The position numbers and the translations under genes were made by a program. Of a stretch of DNA of 39,390 nucleotides, positions 1,848-38,909 are shown piece after piece. Where the stretch lies: the sequence record MT833387.1, one strand, 5' to 3'. The notes beneath the pieces are model-generated. The model was not told where the DNA came from. It was given only the letters and a program-made list of their open reading frames with translations, and did not search any database. The first letter of the stretch is position 1; each line of letters begins with the position of its first letter. This DNA comes from Escherichia phage HF4s.

Positions 1848-3973
1848 ATGGCAGAGACATTAGAGAAAAACATGAGCGGATCATGCTCAGGTTTGACCGC
1901 GCCTATTCTCCACAGAAGGAAGTGCGCGAAAAGTGCATTGAAGCTACGAGGTTTGCTCGTGTCCCCGGAGGTCAATGGGAAGGAGCAACGGCGGCTGGAA
2001 CTAAGCTTGATGAGCAGTTAGAGAAGTATCCTAAGTTTGAAATCAATAAGGTAGCAACTGAACTTAACCGCATCATTGCAGAATACCGCAATAACAGAAT
2101 CACTGTTAAGTTTCGTCCTGGTGACAGAGAGGCAAGCGAAGAGTTAGCCAATAAATTAAATGGTCTGTTCCGTGCTGACTACGAAGAAACTGATGGCGGT
2201 GAGGCTTGTGATAATGCATTTGACGACGCTGCTACTGGTGGTTTCGGTTGCTTCCGTTTGACGTCGATGCTGGTCAATGAATACGACCCCATGGACGATC
2301 GTCAGCGTATTGCTATTGAACCAATATACGACCCGTCGCGCTCTGTGTGGTTTGACCCTGACGCTAAGAAGTACGACAAATCTGACGCGTTGTGGGCGTT
2401 CTGCATGTATTCGTTGTCACCTGAAAAATATGAGGCTGAATACGGAAAGAAACCTCCTGCTTCTCTGGATGTAACGTCTATGACCAGTTGGGAATATGAC
2501 TGGTTTGATGAAGATGTTATTTACATAGCGAAGTATTACGAAGTTCGTAAAGAGTCTGTTGACGTCATCAGTTATCGACATCCAATCACTGGAGAGATTG
2601 CAACATACGACAGTGATCAGGTTGAAGATATTGAAGATGAACTGGCAATAGCTGGATTTCATGAAGTGGCAAGGCGCTCAGTGAAGCGCCGTCGTGTGTA
2701 TGTATCCGTAGTGGATGGTGATGGTTTCCTTGAGAAACCTCGACGTATTCCTGGTGAACATATCCCCCTCATCCCGGTTTATGGAAAACGCTGGTTCATT
2801 GATGACATTGAGCGTGTCGAAGGGCACATTGCAAAAGCAATGGATCCACAACGTTTGTACAACCTTCAGGTTTCAATGCTGGCTGATACTGCAGCGCAAG
2901 ACCCCGGTCAGATCCCTATAGTTGGCATGGAGCAAATTCGTGGACTTGAGAAGCACTGGGAGGCTCGCAACAAGAAACGCCCAGCGTTCTTGCCGTTGCG
3001 CGAAGTGAGAGATAAATCTGGCAACATTATCGCTGGAGCTACCCCTGCAGGATATACACAGCCTGCGGTTATGAATCAGGCATTGGCTGCATTACTACAG
3101 CAAACCAGTGCAGATATTCAGGAGGTTACAGGCGGCAGTCAGGCCATGCAGCAGATGCCAAGTAATATTGCTCAGGAAACGGTTAACAACTTGATGAACA
3201 GAGCAGATATGGCTTCGTTTATCTATCTGGACAATATGGCGAAAAGTCTTAAACGCGCTGGTGAAGTATGGCTGTCAATGGCGCGTGAAGTGTACGGTTC
3301 AGAACGTGAAGTGCGCATCGTTAACGAAGATGGAAGTGATGATATCGCTGTCCTGAGCGCACAGGTTGTTGACAGGCAAACAGGGGCTGTTGTTGCGTTA
3401 AATGACCTTTCTGTCGGTCGATACGATGTGACGGTTGATGTTGGACCAAGCTACACAGCACGACGTGATGCAACGGTTTCTGTACTGACAAATGTCCTTA
3501 GCTCTATGCTTCCAACAGACCCAATGCGCCCGGCAATTCAGGGTATTATTCTGGACAATATCGATGGCGAAGGCCTTGATGACTTCAAAGAGTACAACCG
3601 AAACCAACTGCTGATATCTGGTATTGCAAAACCACGCAATGAGAAAGAGAAGCAGATTGTTCAACAGGCGCAAATGGCAGCACAAAGCCAGCCAAATCCT
3701 GAAATGGTTCTCGCTCAGGCGCAAATGGTAGCAGCGCAGGCAGAAGCGCAAAAAGCAACTAACGAAACTGCTCAAACTCAAATCAAAGCATTTACTGCCC
3801 AGCAGGATGCGATGGAGAGTCAGGCAAACACTGTCTATAAACTGGCTCAAGCCAGAAACATCGATGACAAAGCAGTGATGGAGGCAATACGCCTTCTGAA
3901 AGATGTCGCCGAGTCACAACAACAGCAATTCCAGTCACCACCACAGTCACCGGCAGACTTAATGCCGAGTTAA
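1848..3973 (+). CDS. portal protein (P22 gp1 / Sf6 gp3 type), N-terminus disrupted by apparent frameshift
   Basis: Longest intact ORF is 1883..3973 (696 aa), with an N-terminal region aligning to P22 portal. An ATG at 1848 with MAETLEKN lies 3 nt after the terL stop in another frame; restoring one A in the A5 run 1866-1870 gives MAETLEKKHERIMLRFD, co-linear with the P22 portal N-terminus. Confidence 0.85.
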
Positions 3974-3986
3974 CCAGGAGTAATCA

Positions 3987-4870
3987 ATGGAAAACGAACT
4001 GATCATCGACGGTCAGGTTATTGACCTGTCTGAAACACAGGAAAATGCAGAAGAAACCATCATCCAAACAGAGTCACAGCCTGAGAATGAAAGCCAGGAT
4101 GACAACGGAAAAGAGATGGCAACTGATCCTGAAAAACCGAAGAGACACCAGAAGATTACGCCTTGCGTATTGGTGATGAAGAAATTCAGCTTAACGCTGA
4201 CGATGATGATCACATTGACGGGCAACCTGCACCGCAATGGGTGAAAGATCTTCGCAAAGGCTTCAAAGAAACACAGAAAGAAAACCGTGAGTTGCGCCGC
4301 CAGCTTGAGGAAGCATTAGCCAAGCCTGCGGAACATCAGCAACCACAACCAGACGCTATTCCACCAAAACCGACTCTTGAGTCGTGTGATTATGACGAAC
4401 AGGCGTTTGAACAGGCATTGACTGATTGGCATGAGAAAAAAGGCCGTGTCGAACAGCAGCAGCAACAAAAACTACGTCAGCAACAGGAATACCAACAGCG
4501 TTTCCAGCAAAGGGTAGAAGCGCATAAACAACGGGCAGCCAAACTTCCTGTGAAAGATTATCAGGAAATGGAGGCCATTGTTCTTAGTGAGCTACCACCA
4601 ATTCAGCAGGAAATCATCATTCACTGTGCAGACGAAGGCTCTGAACTACTCGCCTATGGCTTAGGTAAGAGCCAGCAATTACGCCAGCGTGTAGCCGCTG
4701 AGACAGATCCAATTCGCGCAGCATTCCTCTTGGGGCAGATTAGCAAACAGGTAAGCCTTGCTCCAAAACCAAAGAAAGCCATCAAGCCAGAGCCGGAAGT
4801 ACGTGGTGGCGGTGCTGATGCGAAACAAGACGAATTCAACAAATTATGCCCCGGCGCAAAAATCGAATAA
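3987..4870 (+). CDS. scaffolding protein (P22 gp8-like), split by apparent frameshift
   Basis: Two overlapping ORFs (3987..4244 and 4163..4870 with a TTG start) between portal and coat; acidic N-terminus and charged helical C-terminus typical of scaffold; frame change at the A5 run 4132-4136. Confidence 0.7.
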
Positions 4871-4881
4871 GGAAAAGATAA

Positions 4882-6153
4882 ATGCCTAACAATCTCGACA
4901 GTAACGTCAGTCAAATCGTTCTGAAAAAATTCCTTCCGGGTTTTATGTCAGATTTAGTTCTGGCGAAAACCGTAGACCGTCAGTTGCTGGCAGGTGAAAT
5001 CAACTCCAGCACTGGCGATAGCGTTAGCTTTAAACGTCCGCATCAATTCTCATCCCTCCGTACTCCCACTGGTGATATTTCAGGGCAAAATAAAAACAAC
5101 CTGATCTCAGGTAAAGCTACGGGGCGTGTAGGTAACTACATCACTGTTGCTGTTGAATATCAGCAACTGGAGGAAGCGATCAAGCTTAACCAACTGGAAG
5201 AAATTCTCGCGCCGGTTCGCCAGCGAATCGTTACCGACCTTGAAACAGAGCTTGCTCACTTCATGATGAATAACGGTGCGTTGTCACTTGGTAGCCCCAA
5301 TACTCCAATCACCAAATGGTCTGATGTTGCGCAGACGGCATCTTTCCTGAAAGACCTCGGCGTTAATGAAGGTGAAAACTATGCTGTAATGGATCCATGG
5401 TCTGCACAGCGACTTGCTGATGCGCAGACTGGTTTGCACGCTTCAGATCAATTGGTTCGTACTGCATGGGAGAATGCGCAGATTCCAACCAATTTTGGCG
5501 GCATTCGCGCACTGATGTCTAATGGGCTTGCCTCTCGTACGCAGGGGGCATTTGGCGGAACACTGACAGTCAAAACACAGCCAACTGTTACCTATAACGC
5601 AGTTAAAGACTCATACCAGTTCACTGTAACATTGACCGGAGCGACAGCCAGCATTACAGGTTTTCTGAGAGCTGGTGATCAGGTTAAATTCACCAATACC
5701 TACTGGCTGCAACAGCAGACCAAACAGGCGTTGTATAACGGAGCCACACCAATTAGCTTCACTGCAACGGTTACTGCTGATGCTAATTCAGACAGCAGTG
5801 GCGATGTGACGGTTACGCTTTCTGGTGTTCCGATTTATGACACGACAAACCCGCAGTACAACTCTGTAAGTCGTCAGGTAGCGGCAGGCGATGCCGTATC
5901 TGTAGTAGGCACTGCTAGCCAGACAATGAAGCCAAACCTGTTCTATAACAAGTTCTTCTGTGGACTTGGCTCTATCCCACTGCCGAAACTGCACAGTATT
6001 GATTCTGCTGTTGCAACATATGAAGGTTTCTCCATCCGCGTACATAAATACGCAGATGGCGATGCCAACGTGCAAAAAATGCGCTTTGACTTACTGCCTG
6101 CATATGTGTGCTTTAACCCTCACATGGGCGGTCAGTTCTTCGGTAATCCGTAA
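4882..6153 (+). CDS. major capsid (coat) protein, P22 gp5 / Sf6 gp5 type
   Basis: 423 aa, directly after scaffold with a strong RBS; length and position match the P22-like coat. Confidence 0.9.
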   Translation: MPNNLDSNVSQIVLKKFLPGFMSDLVLAKTVDRQLLAGEINSSTGDSVSFKRPHQFSSLRTPTGDISGQNKNNLISGKATGRVGNYITVAVEYQQLEEAIKLNQLEEILAPVRQRIVTDLETELAHFMMNNGALSLGSPNTPITKWSDVAQTASFLKDLGVNEGENYAVMDPWSAQRLADAQTGLHASDQLVRTAWENAQIPTNFGGIRALMSNGLASRTQGAFGGTLTVKTQPTVTYNAVKDSYQFTVTLTGATASITGFLRAGDQVKFTNTYWLQQQTKQALYNGATPISFTATVTADANSDSSGDVTVTLSGVPIYDTTNPQYNSVSRQVAAGDAVSVVGTASQTMKPNLFYNKFFCGLGSIPLPKLHSIDSAVATYEGFSIRVHKYADGDANVQKMRFDLLPAYVCFNPHMGGQFFGNP

Positions 6154-16046: not shown

Positions 16047-16070
16047 GGCGGGGATACCCCCGCCTATTTT
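16047..16070. terminator. bidirectional intrinsic terminator between convergent tailspike and gtrC
   Basis: GGCGGGG-ata-CCCCGCC hairpin flanked by A/T runs on both sides. Confidence 0.6.
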
Positions 16071-17301
16071 ATTTCTGGTATATGTAATCGATACCGTAAT
16101 ATTCTCCAGCAGCTTTAGGGTTATGGAACTTATCAAGGCGATCCCCTAACCTGAAAGTGTTCTTCTCATTATATTTTGGCACTGTAATCACCTTTTCTCC
16201 AGAATGAATGCCTTTCTCTATCATTGCCACTCTGTCCAAGTATTGATTGTTTATATCTATGTAATATGATGACAACATGAAATAATCAACAAGAAATACA
16301 GGCAATAAAGTTAAAAGTAATACTGGCGTATAAAATTTTGAGATTTTCCCCTCAAATGAAGAAATTATCAGCGACAGACTTGCGAGAAGCAAAATAAAAC
16401 CAGTGGTCATAGCCCTTTGCGGATAGTAAGGTGCTGCAAACATAATTACATTCGAGCCGATTGCAAGGGCAAAGAATATAAAGGAGTATTGCATTTTTGT
16501 TTTATCATGCAGCATTGACAATGACGACAAAATAAACATTGATGTCATGATTACGATTATTAGTGCCCCATACTGCACAAGCATTTCAGGCATCCGGTCA
16601 AGCATGTGAAAGTAGATTCTTTCAGTTAAATCTTTTGAATACCATGAACTGAATGAAGGGCCGGAAGCCCTTGCTGCATTCCCAGGTGCCAAAAGCATGG
16701 AGGCAGAACCAACAAGTACAAATGGCAATAGAGCCAAATCTTTTACAGCGAAACGCTTGTTTATGAATGCCAATATACTATGACAAACGATAAATCCCAC
16801 AGAAAGCACCGCCACTGACTCATTCGATGCGCCAGCTAAAAATCCTAACGCAGCTTGTGGTATGGTAAATTTTACACCTTTCATTAAATTATTGCACAAG
16901 AGCATTAGAAGTAATGAAGGTATTAGATAATTAACAAACCCTACAACCCAAAAGGTATTTTGGCCTATGGAAGGGTTAAAAATAAAGAATGAAACCGCTA
17001 TTAAGCAGAATATAGCAGCCCCACCCTGAGCCATTCTCCTAATAACATGCATCAGAAGTATGCTAACTGTCGCGGTAACAGTTGCACTCATCGCATTAGA
17101 TTTAGCAAAAAGGATCATCGGACTAATAAAGTCTACTATGTATCTGCCGCTCCACCCCATATACATTGCAATATGCTTGTCAATGCTAAATCCAAGATTG
17201 CAGAATGCATAATCATCAGATTGCATTGGTGAAAGATAGCTTATTGCCCAAACCATCCCAAAGAAGGCAATATATGCGATAGGGTCTAAATACTTTTTCA
17301 T
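16069..17301 (-). CDS. gtrC: serotype-specific O-antigen glucosyltransferase, GtrC-type polytopic membrane protein
   Basis: 410-aa multi-pass membrane protein immediately downstream of gtrA-gtrB in the same orientation; visibly AT-rich relative to neighbours. Confidence 0.7.
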
Positions 17302-18214
17302 TTTCTTCCCTTCAGCACGTAACGAGGCCTATTCTTAACTTCTACGTAAATCCTGCCAATGTACTCACCGAGCACACCAATTCCTATTAGCTGAATACCG
17401 CCAAGAAAAAGAATAGAAACAAGGAGGGATGGATACCCACGAACCGCATTACCAAAGGCCAGGGTGTCTATAATCATCCACGCGCCGTACATAAACGCAG
17501 CACCGGCAACGAACAGGCCAATATAAGTCCACATGCGCAGTGGGAATGTTGAGAAGCTTGTGATCCCCTCAAGCGCCAGGTTCCATAGCTTCCAGCCGTT
17601 GAATTTGGTGCTTCCAGCCACTCGTTCTGCTCTGGCATACTCCACAACATCGGTACGGCCGCCAACCCAACTCAATACGCCTTTCATGAACAGGTTGCGC
17701 TCAGGCATGAGCTTAATGTTTTCTACCACCTCGCGAGACATTAGCCTGAAATCTCCAACATTTTCCTCGATCTGCGGGTTGCTGATTTTGTTATGCAGCT
17801 TATAGAACCACTCGGCGGTTTTCCTCTTCAGTCTGCCATCAGTTGAGCGGTCAGATCGTTTAGCAAGCACCATGTCAGCACCTGCTAGCCACTTTTCAAT
17901 CAGATGAGGAATGACCTCAATCGGGTCTTGCAGGTCAACATCAATAGGAATAACGGCATCACCTGTTGCATGGTCTAACCCTGCAAACAATGCTGGTTCT
18001 TTACCAAAGTTTCGTGTAAATGACAGCGGAACAACTAGAGGATCTGAAACGGACAGAGCGTTAATGATTGACTCCGTAGCGTCTTTGCTACCATCATTTA
18101 TAAAAACAATTTCCACTTCATATGGCTTCAACTCTTCGAATTCACGTACCGTTTTATAAAAATAGGTATCGCTTCCTCTTCGTTGAAGACAGGAACGACC
18201 AGAGATATCTTCAT
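17298..18214 (-). pseudogene. gtrB: bactoprenol glucosyltransferase GtrB, frameshifted after codon ~19
   Basis: ATG overlapping the gtrA stop encodes the canonical [19 protein letters not shown] and then terminates; the rest of GtrB ([10 protein letters not shown]...) continues in another frame; break at the T5 run (plus-strand A5, 18158-18162). Confidence 0.85.
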
Positions 18215-18573
18215 TTCGCATCCCTAAAGACAATGAACTTTGAATAGACGAAACCGCACACTAGGCTGATGGCGGAGAAGGTGACAAGAGTGACAATTGG
18301 AGGAAGTGCACATTTATCGGCAGCCCATCCAACAGTAGCACTCAGTGTTCCCATGAATCCTACATATAACATGTAGCGCATCGTTGTAGTCGAAGCTTTG
18401 AATGTGAATTTTGCATTCGCGAAGAAGCTAAAGCTCACAGCCACAACGAAACCTGCGAAGTTTGCAAGAGCCTGATTGGTGTGCGCGGCATAGATACATA
18501 CACCAAAAACCACCCAATGTATAAGTGTGTTCAGCACACCAATCGAGGTGTACTTTGCAAATAGCTTTAACAT
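18211..18573 (-). CDS. gtrA: GtrA flippase-like small membrane protein
   Basis: 120-aa hydrophobic protein with stop overlapping the gtrB start (ATGA); typical gtrA size and arrangement. Confidence 0.85.
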
Positions 18574-24271: not shown

Positions 24272-24654
24272 TTAGAAGGGAATTGAATCGTCGTATTCAG
24301 GATGATTTTGATGATTGCTACTTTGTTGCTGTTGGCTGTTTCCTGAAGTTGCAAATCCAATCTTTGCATTCAGTAATTCAAGAGTGATTGATTGACCATT
24401 TTGCCCCTGATAAACATCAACCCTGATGTTTTCTCCGGTAATTTCCACAATGCCACCTTCAACAAGAACACTACGGTAGTAATCCGCTTGCGCTCCTGGC
24501 TTGGCAAATACAACGGCGCTGTAGTTTGTCCATTCTTTCTTTTTGTCTGGCGATCGTAATACTGAACGCCAGCACGGATGTTGAATCCGATATTTTCCCC
24601 GGCCTGAAACTCTCTTGCGGGCTTGTTTAGTCTTACAGTAATCGAATGTGCCAT
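24272..24654 (-). pseudogene. ssb: single-stranded DNA-binding protein, frameshifted
   Basis: N-terminal ~40 codons in one frame; the other frame continues as an OB-fold-like sequence ending in the SSB acidic tail (EYDDSIPF-stop); break at the A5 run (plus-strand T5, 24540-24544). Confidence 0.75.
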
Positions 24655-25808: not shown

Positions 25809-26777
25809 TTAGTAGGTTATTTTTGTTGCGAATACTTCGCCTTTTACGATGGCTGTTATGATATTTTTAGCAACATCTTCTGATGCGCCAACCTTGATAA
25901 GGTCAGCAAGTATTTTGTTATTTACTTCTTTCCGGTGAGCTTTATCCTTTGCTCTACGCTCTTCTTCGTCCTTGATTCTTTTTTCTTCTGCTATTCTGGC
26001 TTGCTCTTTTGCTTCAGCCTCGCGACGGATTCGTTCAGCCTCCTCCTGTGCTTTTCTGCGCTCTGCTTCAATTGCTGCCTGCTTTTCTCTTTCAGCTCGT
26101 TCTGCTGCCTCTTTTGCTTCGCGCTGTGCTCGTTGCTCGGCTTCAATGCGTTCACGCTCTGCACGTTCCGCTGCGGCCTTAGCTTCTGCTTCTCGCCTTG
26201 CTGCTGCTTCAATTTCGGCTTTTGCCTTTGCTTCGGCTTCTGCTCTGGCTTTCTCTTCAGCTTCTCTTTTTAATCGTTCTTCATGCTCTCGCTTTTCCTG
26301 CTCCGCTTTGAGTCTTGCCTCTTCTCTTTGGCGGTCAAATTCGCGATCCATCAAAATAGCTATTTCATGGTCAGACTCAATTTGCTTTGCGAGAGCTTCA
26401 GCTGCTGCCTTAGCTTCTTCTTCGGCTTTAATCCGCGCCTGTTCTTCCTCATAATCAGTAAGAGGCTGGCGCGCCTTGGCTTTCAGCTCATCAAGGCGAT
26501 CACGCACTGTCTTGCGGTTGGCATCAATTAGCTTTGGAATTTCCTTCAGTTCAGCAACAAGGTCTTTGCCAAGACCATCGAGATATGTTTTCGTCTGCGC
26601 AACTTTATACGCCAGAGAAGCGATCTCCTTTCTGCCCTTTGCCGTTGTGATATCAGGCACAAAGGACATAACTTCACGTTCAACCTTTTGAAGGATTTCT
26701 TCAATCTGGTCGGCAGACTGAAATACAGTCATTGCATTTGCTTTTTCAATAACAACTAAATCTGTTACTTCACTCAT
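25809..26777 (-). CDS. hypothetical protein with long charged coiled-coil (E/A/K/R repeat) region
   Basis: Start assigned to ATG 26777 (GGAGG RBS) downstream of the terminator; ~150 aa of EAKA/ERAER low-complexity repeats. Confidence 0.7.
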   Translation of the reverse strand: MSEVTDLVVIEKANAMTVFQSADQIEEILQKVEREVMSFVPDITTAKGRKEIASLAYKVAQTKTYLDGLGKDLVAELKEIPKLIDANRKTVRDRLDELKAKARQPLTDYEEEQARIKAEEEAKAAAEALAKQIESDHEIAILMDREFDRQREEARLKAEQEKREHEERLKREAEEKARAEAEAKAKAEIEAAARREAEAKAAAERAERERIEAEQRAQREAKEAAERAEREKQAAIEAERRKAQEEAERIRREAEAKEQARIAEEKRIKDEEERRAKDKAHRKEVNNKILADLIKVGASEDVAKNIITAIVKGEVFATKITY

Positions 26778-26789
26778 ATATCCTCCATC

Positions 26790-26818
26790 AAAAAAATTGC
26801 CCTCACATCGGAGGGCAA
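26790..26818 (-). terminator. intrinsic terminator (tL1-like)
   Basis: Minus-strand TTGCCCTC-cgatgt-GAGGGCAA hairpin followed by a T7 run. Confidence 0.7.
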
Positions 26819-26965
26819 AGAAGATTTCCAATAATCAGAACAAGTCGGCTCCTGTTTAGTTACGAGCGACATTGCTCCGTGTATTCACTCGTTGGAATGA
26901 ATACACAGTGCTATGTTTATTCTGTTGTTTATGCCAAAAATAAAGGACGGTTATGCGGCCTGAAA

Positions 26966-27415
26966 TTACTTAACCAATGATGCTGCATATTCGATAAGGT
27001 AAAGTTTTGGGGCCAGCCAAATTTTTAACCAAGTCATATTGGTTACTACACCAATAATAAAAATCCCCCACAGAGTCAAAACTCCAACCAATGGCATGAT
27101 AAGAAGGTTAATATCTCCTTTGCTATCCCAAACCATTGTCGGACTGTATTTGGTATTTCCCCTCTCCCATGAGTATCCTTCATCACCGATTTTACCTGTC
27201 TCAACTCTTTGGCACTGCTTCTTCATAAACCAGAAAACCAGTGGGATTGTTAGAATGGCTATTAATGTTTTAATCAGACTGTCAACCATATTCCATAGCA
27301 GCAACTGATGAACAACATCAGGAATCTGCGCTTGGCTGAATGAAACAGCCGCGTCTATTCCATTACTGGCTTTTTGCAGTAGTTCTACGAGAATCTTGTT
27401 TGCTTGTTCTTCCAT
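26966..27415 (-). CDS. membrane protein in SieB position (candidate superinfection exclusion protein)
   Basis: 149 aa, two strongly hydrophobic helices; first gene after N in the PL operon. Confidence 0.6.
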   Translation of the reverse strand: MEEQANKILVELLQKASNGIDAAVSFSQAQIPDVVHQLLLWNMVDSLIKTLIAILTIPLVFWFMKKQCQRVETGKIGDEGYSWERGNTKYSPTMVWDSKGDINLLIMPLVGVLTLWGIFIIGVVTNMTWLKIWLAPKLYLIEYAASLVK

Positions 27416-27423
27416 ATCTCACC

Positions 27424-27729
27424 TCAATCGTAATAAGCTGGAATTGATTTTCCGCGTTGCTTCTGGCGGCCTGAACAGGTCACACCCATTTCACTGCGTG
27501 GCTTGCGGTAGTAAATACGGTTCTGTTTAAGCTCGACTTCTTCTGCCTTCTTGCAGCGAAGGCTTCCGAGTGATGCTGCTTTATCTGCTCTGACGCAACC
27601 AGAGAGCTTTAGCGCAATTTTTCGCGCCAGTCGCTGCTCTTGCATTGCCTGTTCACGTTGAGCCTGTCTGCGTGCTCTGCGGCGATTTCTGGCGTTATCG
27701 TCAGCCAGATATGTAATGACTACTGTCAT
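27424..27729 (-). CDS. N: antitermination protein N
   Basis: 101 aa; arginine-rich motif near the N-terminus (NARNRRRARRQAQ); C-terminus (GVTCSGRQKQRGKSIP) matches lambda N. Confidence 0.85.
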   Translation of the reverse strand: MTVVITYLADDNARNRRRARRQAQREQAMQEQRLARKIALKLSGCVRADKAASLGSLRCKKAEEVELKQNRIYYRKPRSEMGVTCSGRQKQRGKSIPAYYD

Positions 27730-27836
27730 GTTGACCTCCGATGATTGACTTTGGCGGTGACGCGCCGGGTGCTTATCTTCCGGTTGCCGTCGTGCAGCTG
27801 CACTTCACGTCACCCCAAAGCCAACTACTCTTTGGT

Positions 27837-27878
27837 TCCCGCATTTCGGCGGGACAATCCCATCAATGTTAAAGAGCC
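27837..27878 (-). promoter_or_regulatory. nutL (boxA plus boxB)
   Basis: Minus-strand GGCTCTTTAACA (rrn-like boxA) followed ~12 nt later by the TCCCGC-CGAAAT-GCGGGA hairpin, identical to the nutR boxB. Confidence 0.7.
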
Positions 27879-27925
27879 TGCCAATCTGTTCCGTTTGGCT
27901 ACCAGCGTCCTGCTGATGGCTAAAG

Positions 27926-28010
27926 AATACTGTAGGTATTTTATTGTGTAAATACCCAAGGTATTTATTTTTGGTGAAATAATGATAAGCAAATGAATAC
28001 AAAGGATATT
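27926..28010. promoter_or_regulatory. OL operator region / PL promoter
   Basis: Three 15-bp sites of the form AATAC-N5-GTATT (AATACTGTAGGTATT, AATACCCAAGGTATT, AATACAAAGGATATT), same consensus as the OR sites. Confidence 0.65.
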
Positions 28011-28096
28011 TATTTTTTCGGTGTCTGCTTGTTCAGTGCTTTTTATGCGGGATATGTGAAGTGGATCCCGATAGCTATTGCTGCCGGGATTATGGG

Positions 28097-28464
28097 TTAG
28101 TCAGCGAAGGTTAAGACGAGAATTACCTTAATGATGTCTGCTACAACAGACACGGCCATAGATAAACCAAAGACAATCCAAGCCATAGAGATGTCTTCAC
28201 TACCATCGTATAGGGTTCCGTAATCACTGGTGTAAGGCGTAAATGTCGCGCCTTGATACAATAGGTATAAGCTTGATCCATAGAGGATAAATGCAGATAT
28301 CCCTTGTATTGCTATGATCACTAGAATCATGAAACGAGCTGATCTATGCGCCCAAGCCTGGCTTATTTTTCTGATAGAGATTTCGCAATAAAAGCATGCG
28401 CTAAGCCGTAAATTGTCGAGATTGCCAACATCCCAAAAAAGCTTGCTATAGCGGTTCCAACCAT
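28097..28464 (-). CDS. small multi-pass membrane protein in the rexAB position, split by apparent frameshift
   Basis: 33-aa hydrophobic ORF (AAGGGG RBS, 17 nt after the cI stop) and 77-aa two-TM ORF (28097..28330) are separated by an A5 run; adding one A fuses them into one ~122-aa protein with 3-4 predicted TM helices. Confidence 0.6.
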
Positions 28465-28481
28465 AATCGCCCCTTGCGTGA

Positions 28482-29198
28482 TCAAACCAGCCTCAGTTTT
28501 GTCTCAATTGCAACGCCTATAATCTTGCAGTTTCCATTGATTGGCACGAGAGGCCATGCAGGATTAAGTCCCTTGAGGTATTTATTTCCGCCGTCGATTA
28601 TCAGCTTCTTGAATGTTGCTTCGTTAGAGTCAGAAAGTTTTGCTATGACCAAGCTGCCGTTGATCGCCTCCCTTCCGGTATCGAAAAGAACGAATGTTCC
28701 CTCTGGAATGCTTAACCCAACCGGTGCCGTCATTGAATCACCTTCCACTTTAAGCCAGAACGCATTACCTTGAATATGCGCGTCAGACTCAAGCCAAACA
28801 TCTATGTCTTTAATGGTGTATGGTTCGCATGCTTCACACCACGAGCCAGCCTGGATACTGCTTAACACCGGATACCTCTTTCCTGCTCTGTATTCCCCTG
28901 CATACCTTACGTTGGCATCGCTCTTAAGGCTTTCTGCCTGTTCTGCAACCTTGGCAGCAATTGACTGGCTAAAATCAGCAATTGAGACTTGCAACAGTCG
29001 TGCAAAACCAGATGCAACCTCAACGTTTAGCGCGTTTCTGCCATTAAGATAATGCCCTACCGCTCCTTGGGTGATACCCAGTTCATCAGCGATTGAGTAT
29101 TGGGTTATTCCCAATTCTTTCTTTTTTGACTCATACAAAGCCTTAAGCCGCTTAGCGTCTTCCAGCTGTTCTGTCGTCAGTGATTTTTTATTTTCCAT
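28482..29198 (-). CDS. cI: CI-type repressor (HTH plus LexA-like S24 autoprotease domain)
   Basis: 238 aa; aligns along its length with lambda CI, including the Ala-Gly cleavage region and Ser/Lys dyad context. Confidence 0.92.
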   Translation of the reverse strand: MENKKSLTTEQLEDAKRLKALYESKKKELGITQYSIADELGITQGAVGHYLNGRNALNVEVASGFARLLQVSIADFSQSIAAKVAEQAESLKSDANVRYAGEYRAGKRYPVLSSIQAGSWCEACEPYTIKDIDVWLESDAHIQGNAFWLKVEGDSMTAPVGLSIPEGTFVLFDTGREAINGSLVIAKLSDSNEATFKKLIIDGGNKYLKGLNPAWPLVPINGNCKIIGVAIETKLRLV

Positions 29199-29204
29199 AG
29201 CTTA

Positions 29205-29275
29205 ATTCTAATAGCTAAGGTACTTAAACTAAAAATACCCTGAGTATTGATTGCTTTGAATACCTGTAGTATTCT
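29205..29275. promoter_or_regulatory. OR operator region with divergent PRM/PR
   Basis: AATACCCTGAGTATT and AATACCTGTAGTATT palindromes between divergent cI and cro. Confidence 0.7.
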
Positions 29276-29304
29276 TTGTTCATGGTTAATAACGGAGAGT
29301 GCAT

Positions 29305-29499
29305 ATGATTCGAATGACACTTGCCGATTACGCCAAAATCCATGGACAGGCTAAAGCAGCCAGTGACTTTGGTGTAATCCAGTGCGCTATCAGCAAGGCC
29401 ATTCTGGCAGGCCGTAACATCATGGTTACGGTAAAGCCTGATGGCAGTGTGATTGGAGAGGAAGTTCGTCCTTTCCCAAGCAACAAGAAAAACAAATAG
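29305..29499 (+). CDS. cro: Cro repressor
   Basis: ~64 aa, lambda Cro-like ([11 protein letters not shown]..., ending PFPSNKK); GGAGAG RBS before the ATG at 29305. Confidence 0.85.
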
Positions 29500-32574: not shown

Positions 32575-32601
32575 GGGGCTATTTACACAGTAGCCCTTTT
32601 T
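32575..32601 (+). terminator. intrinsic terminator (tR2-like)
   Basis: GGGCTA-9 nt loop-TAGCCC followed by TTTTT, directly after the helicase stop. Confidence 0.65.
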
Positions 32602-36939: not shown

Positions 36940-37263
36940 ATGAAGATGCCAGAAAAACATGACCTGTTAGCCGCCATTCTCGCGGCAAAGGAACAAGGCA
37001 TCGGGGCAATCCTTGCGTTTGCAATGGCGTACCTTCGCGGCAGATATAATGGCGGTGCGTTTACAAAAACAGTAATCGACGCAACGATGTGCGCCATTAT
37101 CGCCTGGTTCATTCGTGACCTTCTCGACTTCGCCGGACTAAGTAGCAATCTCGCTTATATAACTAGCGTGTTCATCGGCTACATCGGTACTGACTCGATT
37201 GGTTCGCTTATCAAACGCTTCGCTGCTAAAAAAGCCGGAGTAGAAGATGGTGGAAATCAATAA
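36940..37263 (+). CDS. S: holin, lambda S type with dual start
   Basis: 107 aa, essentially identical to lambda S ([22 protein letters not shown]...); upstream stem-loop as in lambda. Confidence 0.95.
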
Positions 37264-37723
37264 TCAACGTAAGGCGTTCCTCGATATGCTGGCGTGGTCA
37301 GAGGGAACTGATAACGGACGTCAGAAAACCAGAAATCATGGTTATGACGTCATTGTAGGCGGAGAGCTATTCACTGATTACTCCGATCATCCTCGCAAAC
37401 TTGTCACGCTAAACCCAAAACTCAAATCAACAGCAGCCGGGCGCTATCAGCTTCTTTCCCGTTGGTGGGATGCCTACCGCAAGCAACTTGGCCTGAAAGA
37501 CTTCTCTCCGAAAAGCCAGGACGCTGTGGCATTGCAGCAGATTAAAGAGCGTGGCGCTCTACCGATGATTGATCGCGGTGATATTCGTCAGGCAATCGAC
37601 CGTTGCAGCAATATATGGGCTTCACTTCCGGGGGCTGGTTATGGTCAGTTCGAGCATAAGGCTGACAGCCTGATTGCAAAATTCAAAGAAGCTGGCGGAA
37701 CAGTCAGAGAGATTGAGGTATGA
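37247..37723 (+). CDS. R: endolysin, lambda R-type lytic transglycosylase
   Basis: 158 aa, near-identical to lambda R. Confidence 0.95.
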
Positions 37724-38157
37724 GCAGAGTAACCGCGATTATCTCCGCTCTGGTTATCTGCATCATCGTCTGTCTGTCATGGGCTGTTAATCACTACCGT
37801 GATAACGCCATCGCCTACAAAGAACAGCGTGATAAGGCCGCATCCATAATCGCTGATATGCAGAAGCGTCAACGTGATGTAGCAGAACTTGACGCCAGAT
37901 ACACAAAGGAGCTTGCTGATGCTAACGCGACTATCGAAAGTCTCCGTGCTGATGTTTCTGCTGGGCGTAAGCGCCTGCAAGTCGCCGCCACCTGTGCAAA
38001 GTCAACGACCGGAGCCAGCGGCATGGGCGATGGAGAAAGCCCAAGACTTACAGCAGATGCTGAACTCAATTATTACCGTCTCCGAAGTGGAATCGACAAG
38101 ATAACCGCGCAGGTTAACTACCTGCAGGAATACATCAGGACGCAATGCCTTCGATGA
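37720..38157 (+). CDS. Rz: spanin inner-membrane subunit Rz
   Basis: 145 aa; N-terminal TM helix identical to lambda Rz, divergent coiled-coil periplasmic part. Confidence 0.9.
37919..38104 (+). CDS. Rz1: spanin outer-membrane lipoprotein Rz1, embedded in Rz (+1 frame)
   Basis: Embedded ORF with signal peptide ending in lipobox-like VSAC followed by a Pro-rich segment. Confidence 0.75.
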
Positions 38158-38663: not shown

Positions 38664-38909
38664 CCATTACAAAGCCTATCTACTGGTGGGCTTGATAATG
38701 AAACCAGAATTTATTCTTGGCAACCAGTTACGGCAGTACAGCGAAACAACCCAAGCCAGTAAGTGGGGAAATAACACTGGCAGCCACTGAAAGATGAACC
38801 TCCTGCCTTATGGCAAAAAGATTCTTTGTGGTGGCGGACTGATGGAAAGACATCTGTTATTGCAGAGACCATTCAATGAGTGGTCTCGACAATGGCTTAT
38901 ACCCTGCAC

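What the first reader, a model, noticed from the sequence alone, without database searches (positions are those of the whole stretch)
28097..28464. Uncharacterised small multi-pass membrane protein in the rexAB position between cI and OL/PL
In lambdoid phages the interval between the repressor gene and PL is a lysogen-expressed accessory slot (rexA/rexB in lambda). Here it holds no rex homologue but a 33-aa hydrophobic ORF and a 77-aa two-TM ORF, co-directional with cI and starting 17 nt after its stop. Repairing a single A in the A5 run between them gives one ~122-aa protein with 3-4 TM helices and an acidic loop. A small membrane protein expressed from the repressor transcript is a plausible superinfection-exclusion or abortive-infection effector, and I do not recognise it as a described family.
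Basis: partly seen in the sequence, partly recalled or inferred. Interest (0 to 1): 0.75.

Follow-up and report, generated by a model that had tools for sequence, protein, structure and literature searches.

The report
hkaS membrane gene, likely sequencing frameshift

Summary
On the minus strand, 17 nt after the cI stop, a 33-codon ORF and a 77-codon ORF are separated by an A5 run. Adding one A gives a 122-aa protein. That protein is hkaS, annotated "unknown" in phage HK620 in 2001 (PHROG 6534). The repaired product is identical to a common natural allele. 147 of 149 related copies carry A6.

The window also has five other A6/T6-to-5 contractions and no expansions. Two of them break the portal and scaffold genes, and one breaks an SSB-like gene. 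The split is therefore most likely a homopolymer sequencing artefact (about 0.85).

HkaS is a real gene under purifying selection. AlphaFold2 gives a confident three-TM-helix model. I found no sequence or fold relative outside its own small enterobacterial family.

In every lineage examined it lies directly after one cI repressor family and before a hairpin and OL/PL. More distant repressors have unrelated genes, or none, in that slot.

Function is untested. The best guess is a lysogen-expressed inner-membrane protein acting against superinfecting phage (about 0.4). It is not a RexB, SieA/Imm or holin family member.

Interest is low to moderate.

The parts
28482..29198 (-). cI repressor gene (238 aa, HTH_3 + Peptidase_S24 type). 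It is the first gene of the presumed PRM/PRE operon.
   Evidence: ORF. It differs from HK620 cI at one residue (A66T; translations), and tblastn gives 100% identity to the mEpX2 repressor. Pfam domains are recorded on homologues.
28470..28475 (-). Shine-Dalgarno motif AAGGGG, 5 nt upstream of the hkaS ATG.
   Evidence: Sequence. AAGGA is found at the same place in the divergent loci L108 and L111.
28097..28464 (-). hkaS gene. As given it is 368 nt with the frame broken; 369 nt and 122 codons in relatives.
   Evidence: Alignment to HK620/HK630 hkaS. HK620 annotation. PHROG 6534 match at E = 1e-78 over the full length.
28363..28464 (-). N-terminal fragment ORF: 33 codons plus TAA. It corresponds to HkaS residues 1-33, which is TM helix 1.
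28366..28370 (-). A5 run, which is A6 in relatives. This is the site of the -1 frameshift.
   Evidence: 141 of 141 aligned relatives have 6, and 147 of 149 after more loci were added. The exact A5 pattern has 0 hits in IMG/VR and the A6 pattern has 103. All 33 metagenome matches to a pattern with a free gap have a gap of 6.
28097..28330 (-). C-terminal fragment ORF of 77 codons. It corresponds to HkaS residues 46-122: TM helix 2, the acidic loop with a beta-hairpin, and TM helix 3.
28065..28090 (-). Stable RNA hairpin 7 nt after the hkaS stop codon. It is the probable 3' end or stabiliser of the cI-hkaS transcript and has no U-tract.
   Evidence: Fold energy -13.7 kcal/mol, z = -3.3. Hairpins of unrelated sequence occupy the same place in L108 (z = -3.5) and L111 (z = -1.5).
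27985..28015 (-). tIMM as annotated in HK620, overlapping OL3. Coordinates were transferred from the HK620 record.
   Evidence: HK620 annotation, offset +26037. My terminator scan did not detect it.
27917..27988 (-). OL1-OL3 operators and the PL promoter.
   Evidence: HK620 annotation. A promoter-like site TTTACA-17-TATTCT lies at 27952-27924. The operator sequences are conserved in L108 and L111.
27424..27729 (-). N-like antiterminator gene. It is the first gene of the PL operon and marks the far boundary of the slot.
   Evidence: PHROG 271 match at E = 5e-37. HK620 annotation.

Best explanation
The feature is the hkaS gene of the HK620-type immunity module, and I make four claims about it with separate confidence. 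(a) Shown, about 0.97: the 33-aa and 77-aa ORFs are the two halves of hkaS. This is a 122-aa protein encoded immediately downstream of one family of cI repressors and upstream of a hairpin and OL/PL. (b) Strongly inferred, about 0.85: the one-base gap (A5 instead of A6) is a homopolymer undercall in this sequence rather than a mutation, so the phage most likely makes intact HkaS. (c) Predicted, about 0.8: HkaS is an inner-membrane protein with three TM helices (residues 2-29, 41-73, 89-121). The N-terminus is periplasmic. A conserved basic amphipathic loop (KISQAWAHRxARF) and the invariant C-terminal ILVLTFAD lie on the cytoplasmic side. A variable acidic beta-hairpin loop lies in the periplasm. 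HkaS is made in lysogens from the PRM cI transcript, and from PRE during establishment. (d) Inferred from position and topology only, about 0.4: it serves the prophage by acting at the inner membrane against superinfecting phages. It could block genome entry as P22 SieA or T4 Imm do, or collapse membrane potential on infection as RexB is reported to do, but as a single protein without a RexA-like sensor.
For: (a) HK620 and HK630 hkaS align with one single-base indel. The repaired protein equals the second commonest natural allele, found in 18 of 133 copies. It gives a full-length PHROG 6534 match. Synteny holds in all four lineages examined. hkaS lies 17-20 nt after a cI that is 86-96% identical to the window's (86% for L108 from an ungapped comparison; 96% and 89% by BLASTP), and it is followed by OL/PL and N. 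There is purifying selection across both halves: pS 0.79-0.88 against pN 0.27-0.33. (b) Among comparable homopolymers, all 903 three-runs, 201 four-runs and 61 five-runs match the relatives. Of the 29 runs that are six long in relatives, 6 are five long in the window. All six are A or T, and there are no expansions. Adding one base at 1866-1870 restores the Sf6 portal N-terminus. At 4132-4136 it turns an 85-aa ORF into the 294-aa scaffold protein. At 24540-24544 it restores an SSB-like protein ending DDSIPF. The window is laid out as a virion-type genome, with terminase at base 14 and int in the middle, which implies a viable phage. (c) The AlphaFold2 model has mean pLDDT 90.2. The hydropathy peaks agree with it. 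Charge distribution is +4 in loop 1 and -4 in loop 2 (sequence). Invariant columns are concentrated in loop 1 (10 of 18) and the C-terminal helix (13 of 29), against 4 of 21 in the acidic loop. Co-transcription is suggested by the 17-nt gap and the gene's own SD. The only promoter-like site found in 27700-29350 is PL. A hairpin follows the stop in three lineages, and HK620 annotates tIMM after hkaS. (d) The cI-to-N interval is a recognised hotspot for prophage-expressed defence genes such as rexAB and bstA (PMC8585504; PMC2629481). The slot holds unrelated genes after more distant repressors (Erwinia phage 49, Sf6/Sf101) or is empty (L159). HkaS evolves 3-4 times faster than its cI neighbour: 83, 61 and 52% identity against 96, 86 and 89%. 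Most of that change is in the periplasmic loop.
Against: (b) An A5 allele on a different allelic background occurs in an independent short contig (L157). Other null alleles exist: Q36 to TAG in L149, L151 and L152, and small deletions in L154 and L155. A real inactivation is therefore possible. The reads are not available to settle it. (c) Topology and co-transcription are predictions, and no canonical U-tract terminator was found. (d) There is no homology of any kind to a known exclusion or defence protein. Pfam, NCBIfam, PADLOC-DB and PDB sequences gave nothing. Foldseek against PDB and BFVD gave nothing at E < 0.001. An HMM search of 1.84 billion representatives found only the family itself. 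hkaS is never found apart from one cI family. This fits a repressor-linked role as well as it fits a mobile defence gene. The occasional natural null alleles show the gene is dispensable.
Confidence: 0.65

Rival explanations
1. The A5 frameshift is real. In this phage hkaS is a recently inactivated pseudogene that makes at most a 33-aa one-helix peptide and possibly a 77-aa two-helix fragment.
For: Independent null alleles occur elsewhere. A5 is seen in L157, Q36-to-stop in three contigs, and other indels in L154 and L155. One of 133 fetched copies is frameshifted elsewhere. The gene is therefore dispensable and sometimes lost.
Against: The same 6-to-5 contraction hits 6 of 29 six-runs in this window, including the essential portal and scaffold genes. 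No other class of indel or run length is affected. The rest of hkaS is identical to a common intact allele. 147 of 149 relatives have A6.
Confidence: 0.13
2. HkaS is not an anti-phage protein. It is instead an accessory of the lysogeny switch tied to this particular repressor. It might modulate repressor cleavage or stability, as 434 Hex does from the same position, or act on FtsH/HflKC and hence CII/CIII turnover at the membrane.
For: hkaS is found only with one cI family of at least 86% identity, across lineages in which HkaS itself has diverged to 52%. Its most conserved parts face the cytoplasm. 434 Hex is translated from the cI mRNA and prevents RecA-mediated repressor autocleavage (PMC3564112 abstract).
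Against: Tight physical linkage (17 nt, same operon) explains the co-inheritance without any functional link. There is no similarity to any regulator. Natural null alleles persist in apparently complete prophages. Related repressors at 65% identity carry a different gene in the slot.
Confidence: 0.15
3. HkaS is a host-fitness moron unrelated to phage-phage conflict, for example one that affects envelope stress, ion homeostasis or colonisation.
For: Many prophage-expressed small membrane proteins have no anti-phage phenotype. There is no defence-family hit. The gene is present in 2.7% of complete E. coli genomes from varied hosts.
Against: No positive evidence was found. The slot's characterised occupants, rexAB and bstA, are anti-phage.
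Confidence: 0.15
4. The A-run is a programmed frameshift or phase-variation site that regulates HkaS dosage.
For: In the A5 form, a -1 P-site slip of tRNA-Lys on GA-AAA-A next to the TAA stop would give exactly the wild-type E-K-I-S sequence (read from the sequence). Variants with other run lengths exist (A4 in L155, A5 in L157).
Against: A6 in frame is the overwhelming state, in 147 of 149 copies. Six bases is short for phase variation. The divergent homologues do not conserve the run; P0010, for example, reads LSLKISQ. No stimulatory structure was examined or is evident.
Confidence: 0.02

Closest known systems
hkaS of coliphage HK620 (AAK28867; also HK630 HkaS, RefSeq WP_000233125, PHROG 6534)
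   Same: It is the same gene. DNA identity is about 98%. The position after cI and before tIMM/OL is the same. The 122-aa product is the same once one A is restored.
   Different: The window copy has A5 instead of A6, which splits the ORF. It also has two or three amino-acid differences from the HK620 allele (V20G, T93S, V94M) that match another common allele.
Lambda RexB (with RexA)
   Same: Same genomic slot between cI and OL/PL. Both are presumably expressed from the repressor transcript in lysogens. Both are small polytopic inner-membrane proteins (PMC8585504).
   Different: There is no sequence relationship: no Pfam hit and hhalign probability 0.3%. HkaS has three predicted helices and 122 aa; lambda RexB is 144 aa. 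No RexA-like partner gene is present, and nothing else fits in the slot.
P22 SieA / T4 Imm type superinfection-exclusion proteins
   Same: They are small prophage- or phage-encoded inner-membrane proteins. SieA is expressed from the prophage and blocks DNA delivery by interacting with ejection proteins (PMC10883804).
   Different: No sequence or profile similarity was found. PHROGs at E <= 1 returned only PHROG 6534 and two weak families of unknown function, and Pfam returned nothing. sieA lies in the ant moron of the late region, not in the cI operon (PMC2629481). No exclusion phenotype is known for HkaS.
BstA of Salmonella prophage BTP1
   Same: It is encoded directly downstream of the prophage repressor, presumably shares its promoter, and has its own terminator (PMC8585504).
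   Different: [quoted passage not shown] It is not a homologue of HkaS: no hit in PADLOC-DB.
Sf6 gp38 / Sf101 gp38 (PHROG 2651) and the Erwinia phage 49 200-aa protein
   Same: They occupy the same slot right after related cI genes in P22-like or lambdoid phages, and their function is also unknown.
   Different: The sequences are unrelated. Sf6 gp38 has a hydrophobic N-terminus (MIRIAALLSILLTT) followed by a largely polar sequence, so it looks like an exported protein rather than a polytopic membrane protein.

Membership tests
HkaS family (HK620 hkaS, PHROG 6534) | Full-length sequence match to the family profile or its members | tested here: met
   The HK620 allele matches PHROG 6534 over residues 1-122 of 122 at E = 1.1e-78. 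The repaired window protein is 98% identical to that allele. DNA identity to HK620 hkaS is about 98%.
HkaS family (HK620 hkaS, PHROG 6534) | Uninterrupted 122-codon reading frame | tested here: not met
   As given, the window has a -1 frameshift at 28366-28370. The frame is restored by one A. The frameshift is probably an artefact.
HkaS family (HK620 hkaS, PHROG 6534) | Position 17-20 nt downstream of an HK620-type cI and upstream of OL/PL | tested here: met
Lambda RexB | Sequence or profile similarity to RexB | tested here: not met
   No Pfam hit at E <= 1. hhalign of the HkaS alignment against lambda RexB gives probability 0.3%.
Lambda RexB | Adjacent rexA-like sensor gene | tested here: not met
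   hkaS starts 17 nt after cI, and only a hairpin and the operators follow it. There is no second gene in the slot.
Lambda RexB | Infection-triggered loss of membrane potential | not testable with these tools
   This needs physiology, for example DiBAC or K+ efflux measurements on infected lysogens.
Superinfection-exclusion membrane proteins (P22 SieA, T4 Imm/Sp, HK97 gp15) | Sequence or profile similarity to any of these families | tested here: not met
   PHROGs at E <= 1 gave only PHROG 6534 plus two weak families of unknown function. Pfam gave no hit. The exhaustive HMM search found only the family itself.
Superinfection-exclusion membrane proteins (P22 SieA, T4 Imm/Sp, HK97 gp15) | Inner-membrane location | tested here: inconclusive
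   Three hydrophobic helices are predicted with high confidence. This is prediction only.
Superinfection-exclusion membrane proteins (P22 SieA, T4 Imm/Sp, HK97 gp15) | Blocks genome entry of superinfecting phage | not testable with these tools
   This needs plating-efficiency and DNA-entry assays.
Class I holins (lambda S type) | Three TM helices, N-out/C-in, about 100-130 aa | tested here: inconclusive
   The prediction is compatible: three helices, with the positive-inside rule giving N-out/C-in.
Class I holins (lambda S type) | Charged cytoplasmic C-terminal tail, location in the lysis cassette, and a holin Pfam match | tested here: not met
   The protein ends in the invariant ILVLTFAD with predicted helix 3 running to residue 121, so there is no C-terminal tail. 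The ORFs that align with the Sf6 holin, endolysin and Rz genes lie at 36940-38157. No Pfam hit.
Known anti-phage defence systems (PADLOC-DB 2.0) | Match to any defence-protein model | tested here: not met
   No hit at E <= 1.

The most novel reading that the evidence does not exclude
HkaS is a stand-alone, single-protein inner-membrane defence or exclusion effector with a fold unrelated to any characterised one. It is made from the repressor transcript. Its fast-evolving periplasmic hairpin would recognise incoming phage components. Its conserved cytoplasmic motifs (KISQAWAHRxARF and ILVLTFAD) would carry out the effector step. It would in effect be a sensor-less counterpart of RexB, confined to one immunity type of enterobacterial lambdoid phages.
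Probability: 0.3. Interest if true: 0.55.

Novelty: already known. Interest (0 to 1): 0.27.

Why it matters
If HkaS does protect lysogens, it would add a very small one-gene membrane system to the defences encoded in the cI-N hotspot. It would be easy to test, because HK620 and its host are laboratory tools. About 1 in 37 complete E. coli genomes, including Stx-phage lysogens, carry it. As it stands, the practical value of this check is different. It shows that the 'two small ORFs' are an annotated gene. It also shows that this window carries systematic homopolymer undercalls, breaking the portal, scaffold, SSB-like and hkaS genes. These should be corrected before any ORF-level interpretation of this sequence.

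Tried and rejected
Remote homology gave nothing. Pfam, NCBIfam, PADLOC-DB and PDB sequences returned no hit. An HMM search over 1.84 billion representatives found only the family plus one truncated copy.

A RexB relationship was rejected by hhalign.

Literature searches for hkaS, its accession numbers or the PHROG id found no paper. The P22 SieA paper mentions HK620 only for its ejection proteins.

The small hydrophobic + strand ORF at 27993-28100 was considered as a possible convergent toxin-like gene and rejected. Its ATG lies inside OL3, and the ORF is not conserved in L108 or L111.

I tried to find the source assembly through an exact tailspike protein and found nothing. The hkaQ-like protein led only to a heteroimmune relative, L159.

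An internal promoter for hkaS, analogous to lambda PLIT, was looked for. No promoter-like site was found on the minus strand within cI.

Full report
**What is there**

The window is a complete P22-like (Lederbergvirus) genome in virion-type layout. The terminase gene starts at base 14, there is an Sf6-like structural block, and int and a gtrABC-like module sit in the middle. Its immunity region is 98-99% identical to that of coliphage HK620 and to lambdoid phages that carry the same module: HK630, HK140, mEpX2, phi296 and some Stx2c phages.

On the minus strand, cI occupies 28482-29198. Seventeen nucleotides after its stop, and behind an AAGGGG ribosome-binding site, an ATG at 28464 opens a 33-codon ORF that ends at a TAA at 28363-28365. 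A 77-codon ORF follows at 28097-28330.

**Identity**

HK620 annotates a single 369-nt gene here, hkaS, with product 'unknown'. It lies between cI and tIMM/OL3, and HK630 names it HkaS. The alignment shows that the only indel between the window and these phages is one A: A5 in the window against A6.

Restoring that A gives a 122-aa protein. It is identical to the second most common allele among 133 copies I collected. The family profile, PHROG 6534 ('unknown function'), matches the 98%-identical HK620 allele end to end at E = 1e-78. RefSeq annotates it as hypothetical protein WP_000233125. The cI-hkaS segment occurs in 146 of 5426 complete E. coli genomes and in 15 phage records.

**Is the frameshift real?**

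The A5 form is essentially unique to this window.
- The exact A5 pattern has no hit in IMG/VR, while the A6 pattern has 103.
- A metagenome scan with a free 3-9 nt gap at the run found 33 matches, all with a gap of six.
- 147 of 149 aligned relatives have six.

I then compared every homopolymer in the window with its close relatives. All 903 three-runs, 201 four-runs and 61 five-runs agree. Of the 29 runs that are six long in relatives, six are five long in the window. All six are A or T, and there is no expansion anywhere.

Three of the other five contractions break genes:
- The portal gene is broken at codon 8.
- The scaffold gene gives 85 aa as it stands and 294 aa when repaired.
- An SSB-like gene regains its C-terminal DDSIPF on repair. 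The closest relative, L159, has T6 there and an intact gene.

A length-dependent, contraction-only pattern that hits essential virion genes, in a genome laid out as a viable phage, is what homopolymer undercalling produces. I put the probability that the hkaS split is an artefact at about 0.85.

There is a caveat. A look-up of the exact 77-aa product found other assemblies with disrupted hkaS: a Q36-to-TAG nonsense codon in three contigs, small deletions in two, and A5 on a different allelic background in one short contig. The gene is therefore sometimes lost, or mis-sequenced, elsewhere, and a real null allele here cannot be excluded without the reads.

**The gene is real and constrained**

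The search for homologous proteins returned only 12 clusters, with source names from E. coli, Hafnia and Salmonella. All intact members are 122 aa. An exhaustive HMM search of 1.84 billion representatives found nothing outside the family.

Against the 52-61% identical homologues, synonymous sites are saturated (pS 0.79-0.88) while pN is 0.27-0.33. This holds for the 33-codon and the 77-codon parts alike.

In every lineage examined, the gene lies 17-20 nt after a cI that is 86-96% identical to the window's. It is followed by conserved OL operators and N. HkaS diverges three to four times faster than that cI: 83, 61 and 52% identity against 96, 86 and 89%.

At greater repressor distance the slot holds other genes. 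After the Erwinia phage 49 cI (65% identical) there is an unrelated 200-aa protein. In Sf6 and Sf101 there is a 134-aa protein with a hydrophobic N-terminus. After a P22-c2-like repressor in L159 there is nothing.

**Anatomy of the protein**

AlphaFold2 on a six-sequence alignment gives mean pLDDT 90. The model has helices at residues 2-29, 31-38, 41-73 and 89-121, and a short beta-hairpin in the 74-88 loop. Hydropathy agrees with three membrane helices.

Loop 1 (KSLSEKISQAWAHRSARF) carries four basic residues and is the most conserved segment, with 10 of 18 columns invariant. Loop 2 (TSDYGTLYDGSEDIS) carries four acidic residues and is the least conserved, with 4 of 21 columns invariant. The C-terminal ILVLTFAD is invariant, and helix 3 holds an invariant D110/K113 pair.

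By the positive-inside rule, the N-terminus and the acidic hairpin face the periplasm, while loop 1 and the C-terminus face the cytoplasm. This topology is a prediction. The frameshift, if real, would separate helix 1 from helices 2-3.

**Expression**

Co-transcription with cI is inferred, not shown. The supporting points are:
- the 17-nt gap and the gene's own Shine-Dalgarno motif;
- PL being the only promoter-like site found in 27700-29350;
- a stable hairpin just after the stop codon (28065-28090, z = -3.3), with hairpins of unrelated sequence at the same place in the two divergent lineages;
- HK620's annotated tIMM.

**Function**

No direct evidence exists.
- No paper mentions hkaS or its accession numbers.
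- There is no match in Pfam, NCBIfam, PADLOC-DB or PDB sequences.
- Foldseek against PDB and BFVD returned nothing significant.
- HkaS is not RexB: hhalign probability is 0.3%, there is no RexA partner, and the two proteins differ in length, 122 against 144 aa.
- It is not a recognisable SieA/Imm-type protein and not a holin. It has no charged tail, lies in the wrong place, and has no family hit.

The literature treats the cI-to-N interval as a hotspot for prophage-expressed genes. Examples are rexAB, bstA, 434 hex and the epsilon34 genes 44/45 (PMC8585504; PMC2629481; PMC3564112).

From position, predicted location and the fast-evolving periplasmic loop, my best guess is a lysogen-expressed inner-membrane protein that interferes with superinfecting phage, at about 0.4. 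Two rivals stand at about 0.15 each: a repressor-linked lysogeny accessory, suggested by its exclusive association with one cI family and its conserved cytoplasmic face, and a host-fitness moron.

**Verdict**

The gene is an already annotated orphan family, and the split is most likely a sequencing artefact. The functional hypothesis is reasonable, untested and easy to test. Interest is low to moderate.

Noticed in passing
window 1866-1870, 4132-4136, 24540-24544, 32597-32601, 38815-38819 (and 28366-28370): Six A/T runs are five long in the window and six long in close relatives, and no run is longer in the window. The first three break the portal gene (codon 8), the scaffold gene (85 aa against 294 aa) and an SSB-like gene (which loses its DDSIPF tail). 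The last two lie in ambiguous or non-coding sequence. This is the signature of homopolymer undercalling.
   Followed up: yes
L149 (39.5-kb contig), L151, L152, L154, L155, L157: Other public assemblies carry disrupted hkaS. Three contigs have a CAG-to-TAG nonsense codon at Q36, on two slightly different backgrounds. L154 has a 2-nt deletion, L155 has A4 plus a deletion, and L157 has A5 on an F10L background. hkaS is therefore dispensable and is occasionally lost or mis-sequenced.
   Followed up: partly
window 27993-28100 (+): A 35-aa hydrophobic ORF (MNTKDIYFFGVCLFSAFYAGYVKWIPIAIAAGIMG) runs convergent to hkaS and overlaps its stop codon and the post-gene hairpin. Its ATG lies inside OL3. The ORF is not conserved in the divergent loci L108 and L111, so it is probably spurious.
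   Followed up: partly
window 28065-28090 (-); L108 about 5381-5421; L111 about 5383-5412: Each of three hkaS lineages has a stable hairpin shortly after the stop codon (7 nt in the window, about 12-14 nt in L108 and L111), although the sequences are unrelated. None has a clear U-tract. This is a conserved structural end of the cI-hkaS unit, and it is distinct from the weak AT-rich tIMM that HK620 annotates over OL3.
   Followed up: yes
window 26966-27415 (-): A 149-aa protein lies immediately after N in the PL operon. It has two hydrophobic segments (about residues 37-60 and 100-125). It matches PHROG 3054 (unknown function) and has no Pfam or PADLOC hit. It is a second uncharacterised small membrane protein next to the immunity region.
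   Followed up: no
window 25809-26831 (-): A 340-aa ORF is extremely rich in E, A, K and R, with repeated AEAKAKAE / REAEAK-like stretches. It has no Pfam hit. L159 has a 322-aa counterpart.
   Followed up: no
window 16069-18573 (-): A gtrA (PF04138) / gtrB (GT2) / DUF6056 membrane protein trio lies between the tailspike gene and int. It is probably an O-antigen glucosylation (serotype-conversion) module with a GtrC-type specificity protein.
   Followed up: partly
L145 (Sf6) 26068-26472; L148 (Sf101) 2409-2813; L147 (Erwinia phage 49) 2530-3132: The same slot after related cI genes holds unrelated genes of unknown function. In Sf6 and Sf101 it is a 134-aa protein with a hydrophobic N-terminus (PHROG 2651). 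In Erwinia phage 49 it is a 200-aa protein (PHROG 22434). Both are equally uncharacterised candidates for prophage-expressed functions.
   Followed up: partly
window 28363-28373 (-): In the A5 form the sequence reads GAA AAA TAA. A -1 P-site slip of tRNA-Lys at the stop codon would read GAA AAA ATA AGC and regenerate exactly the wild-type E-K-I-S sequence. Even a genuine A5 allele could therefore be leaky. This was read from the sequence and not tested.
   Followed up: no
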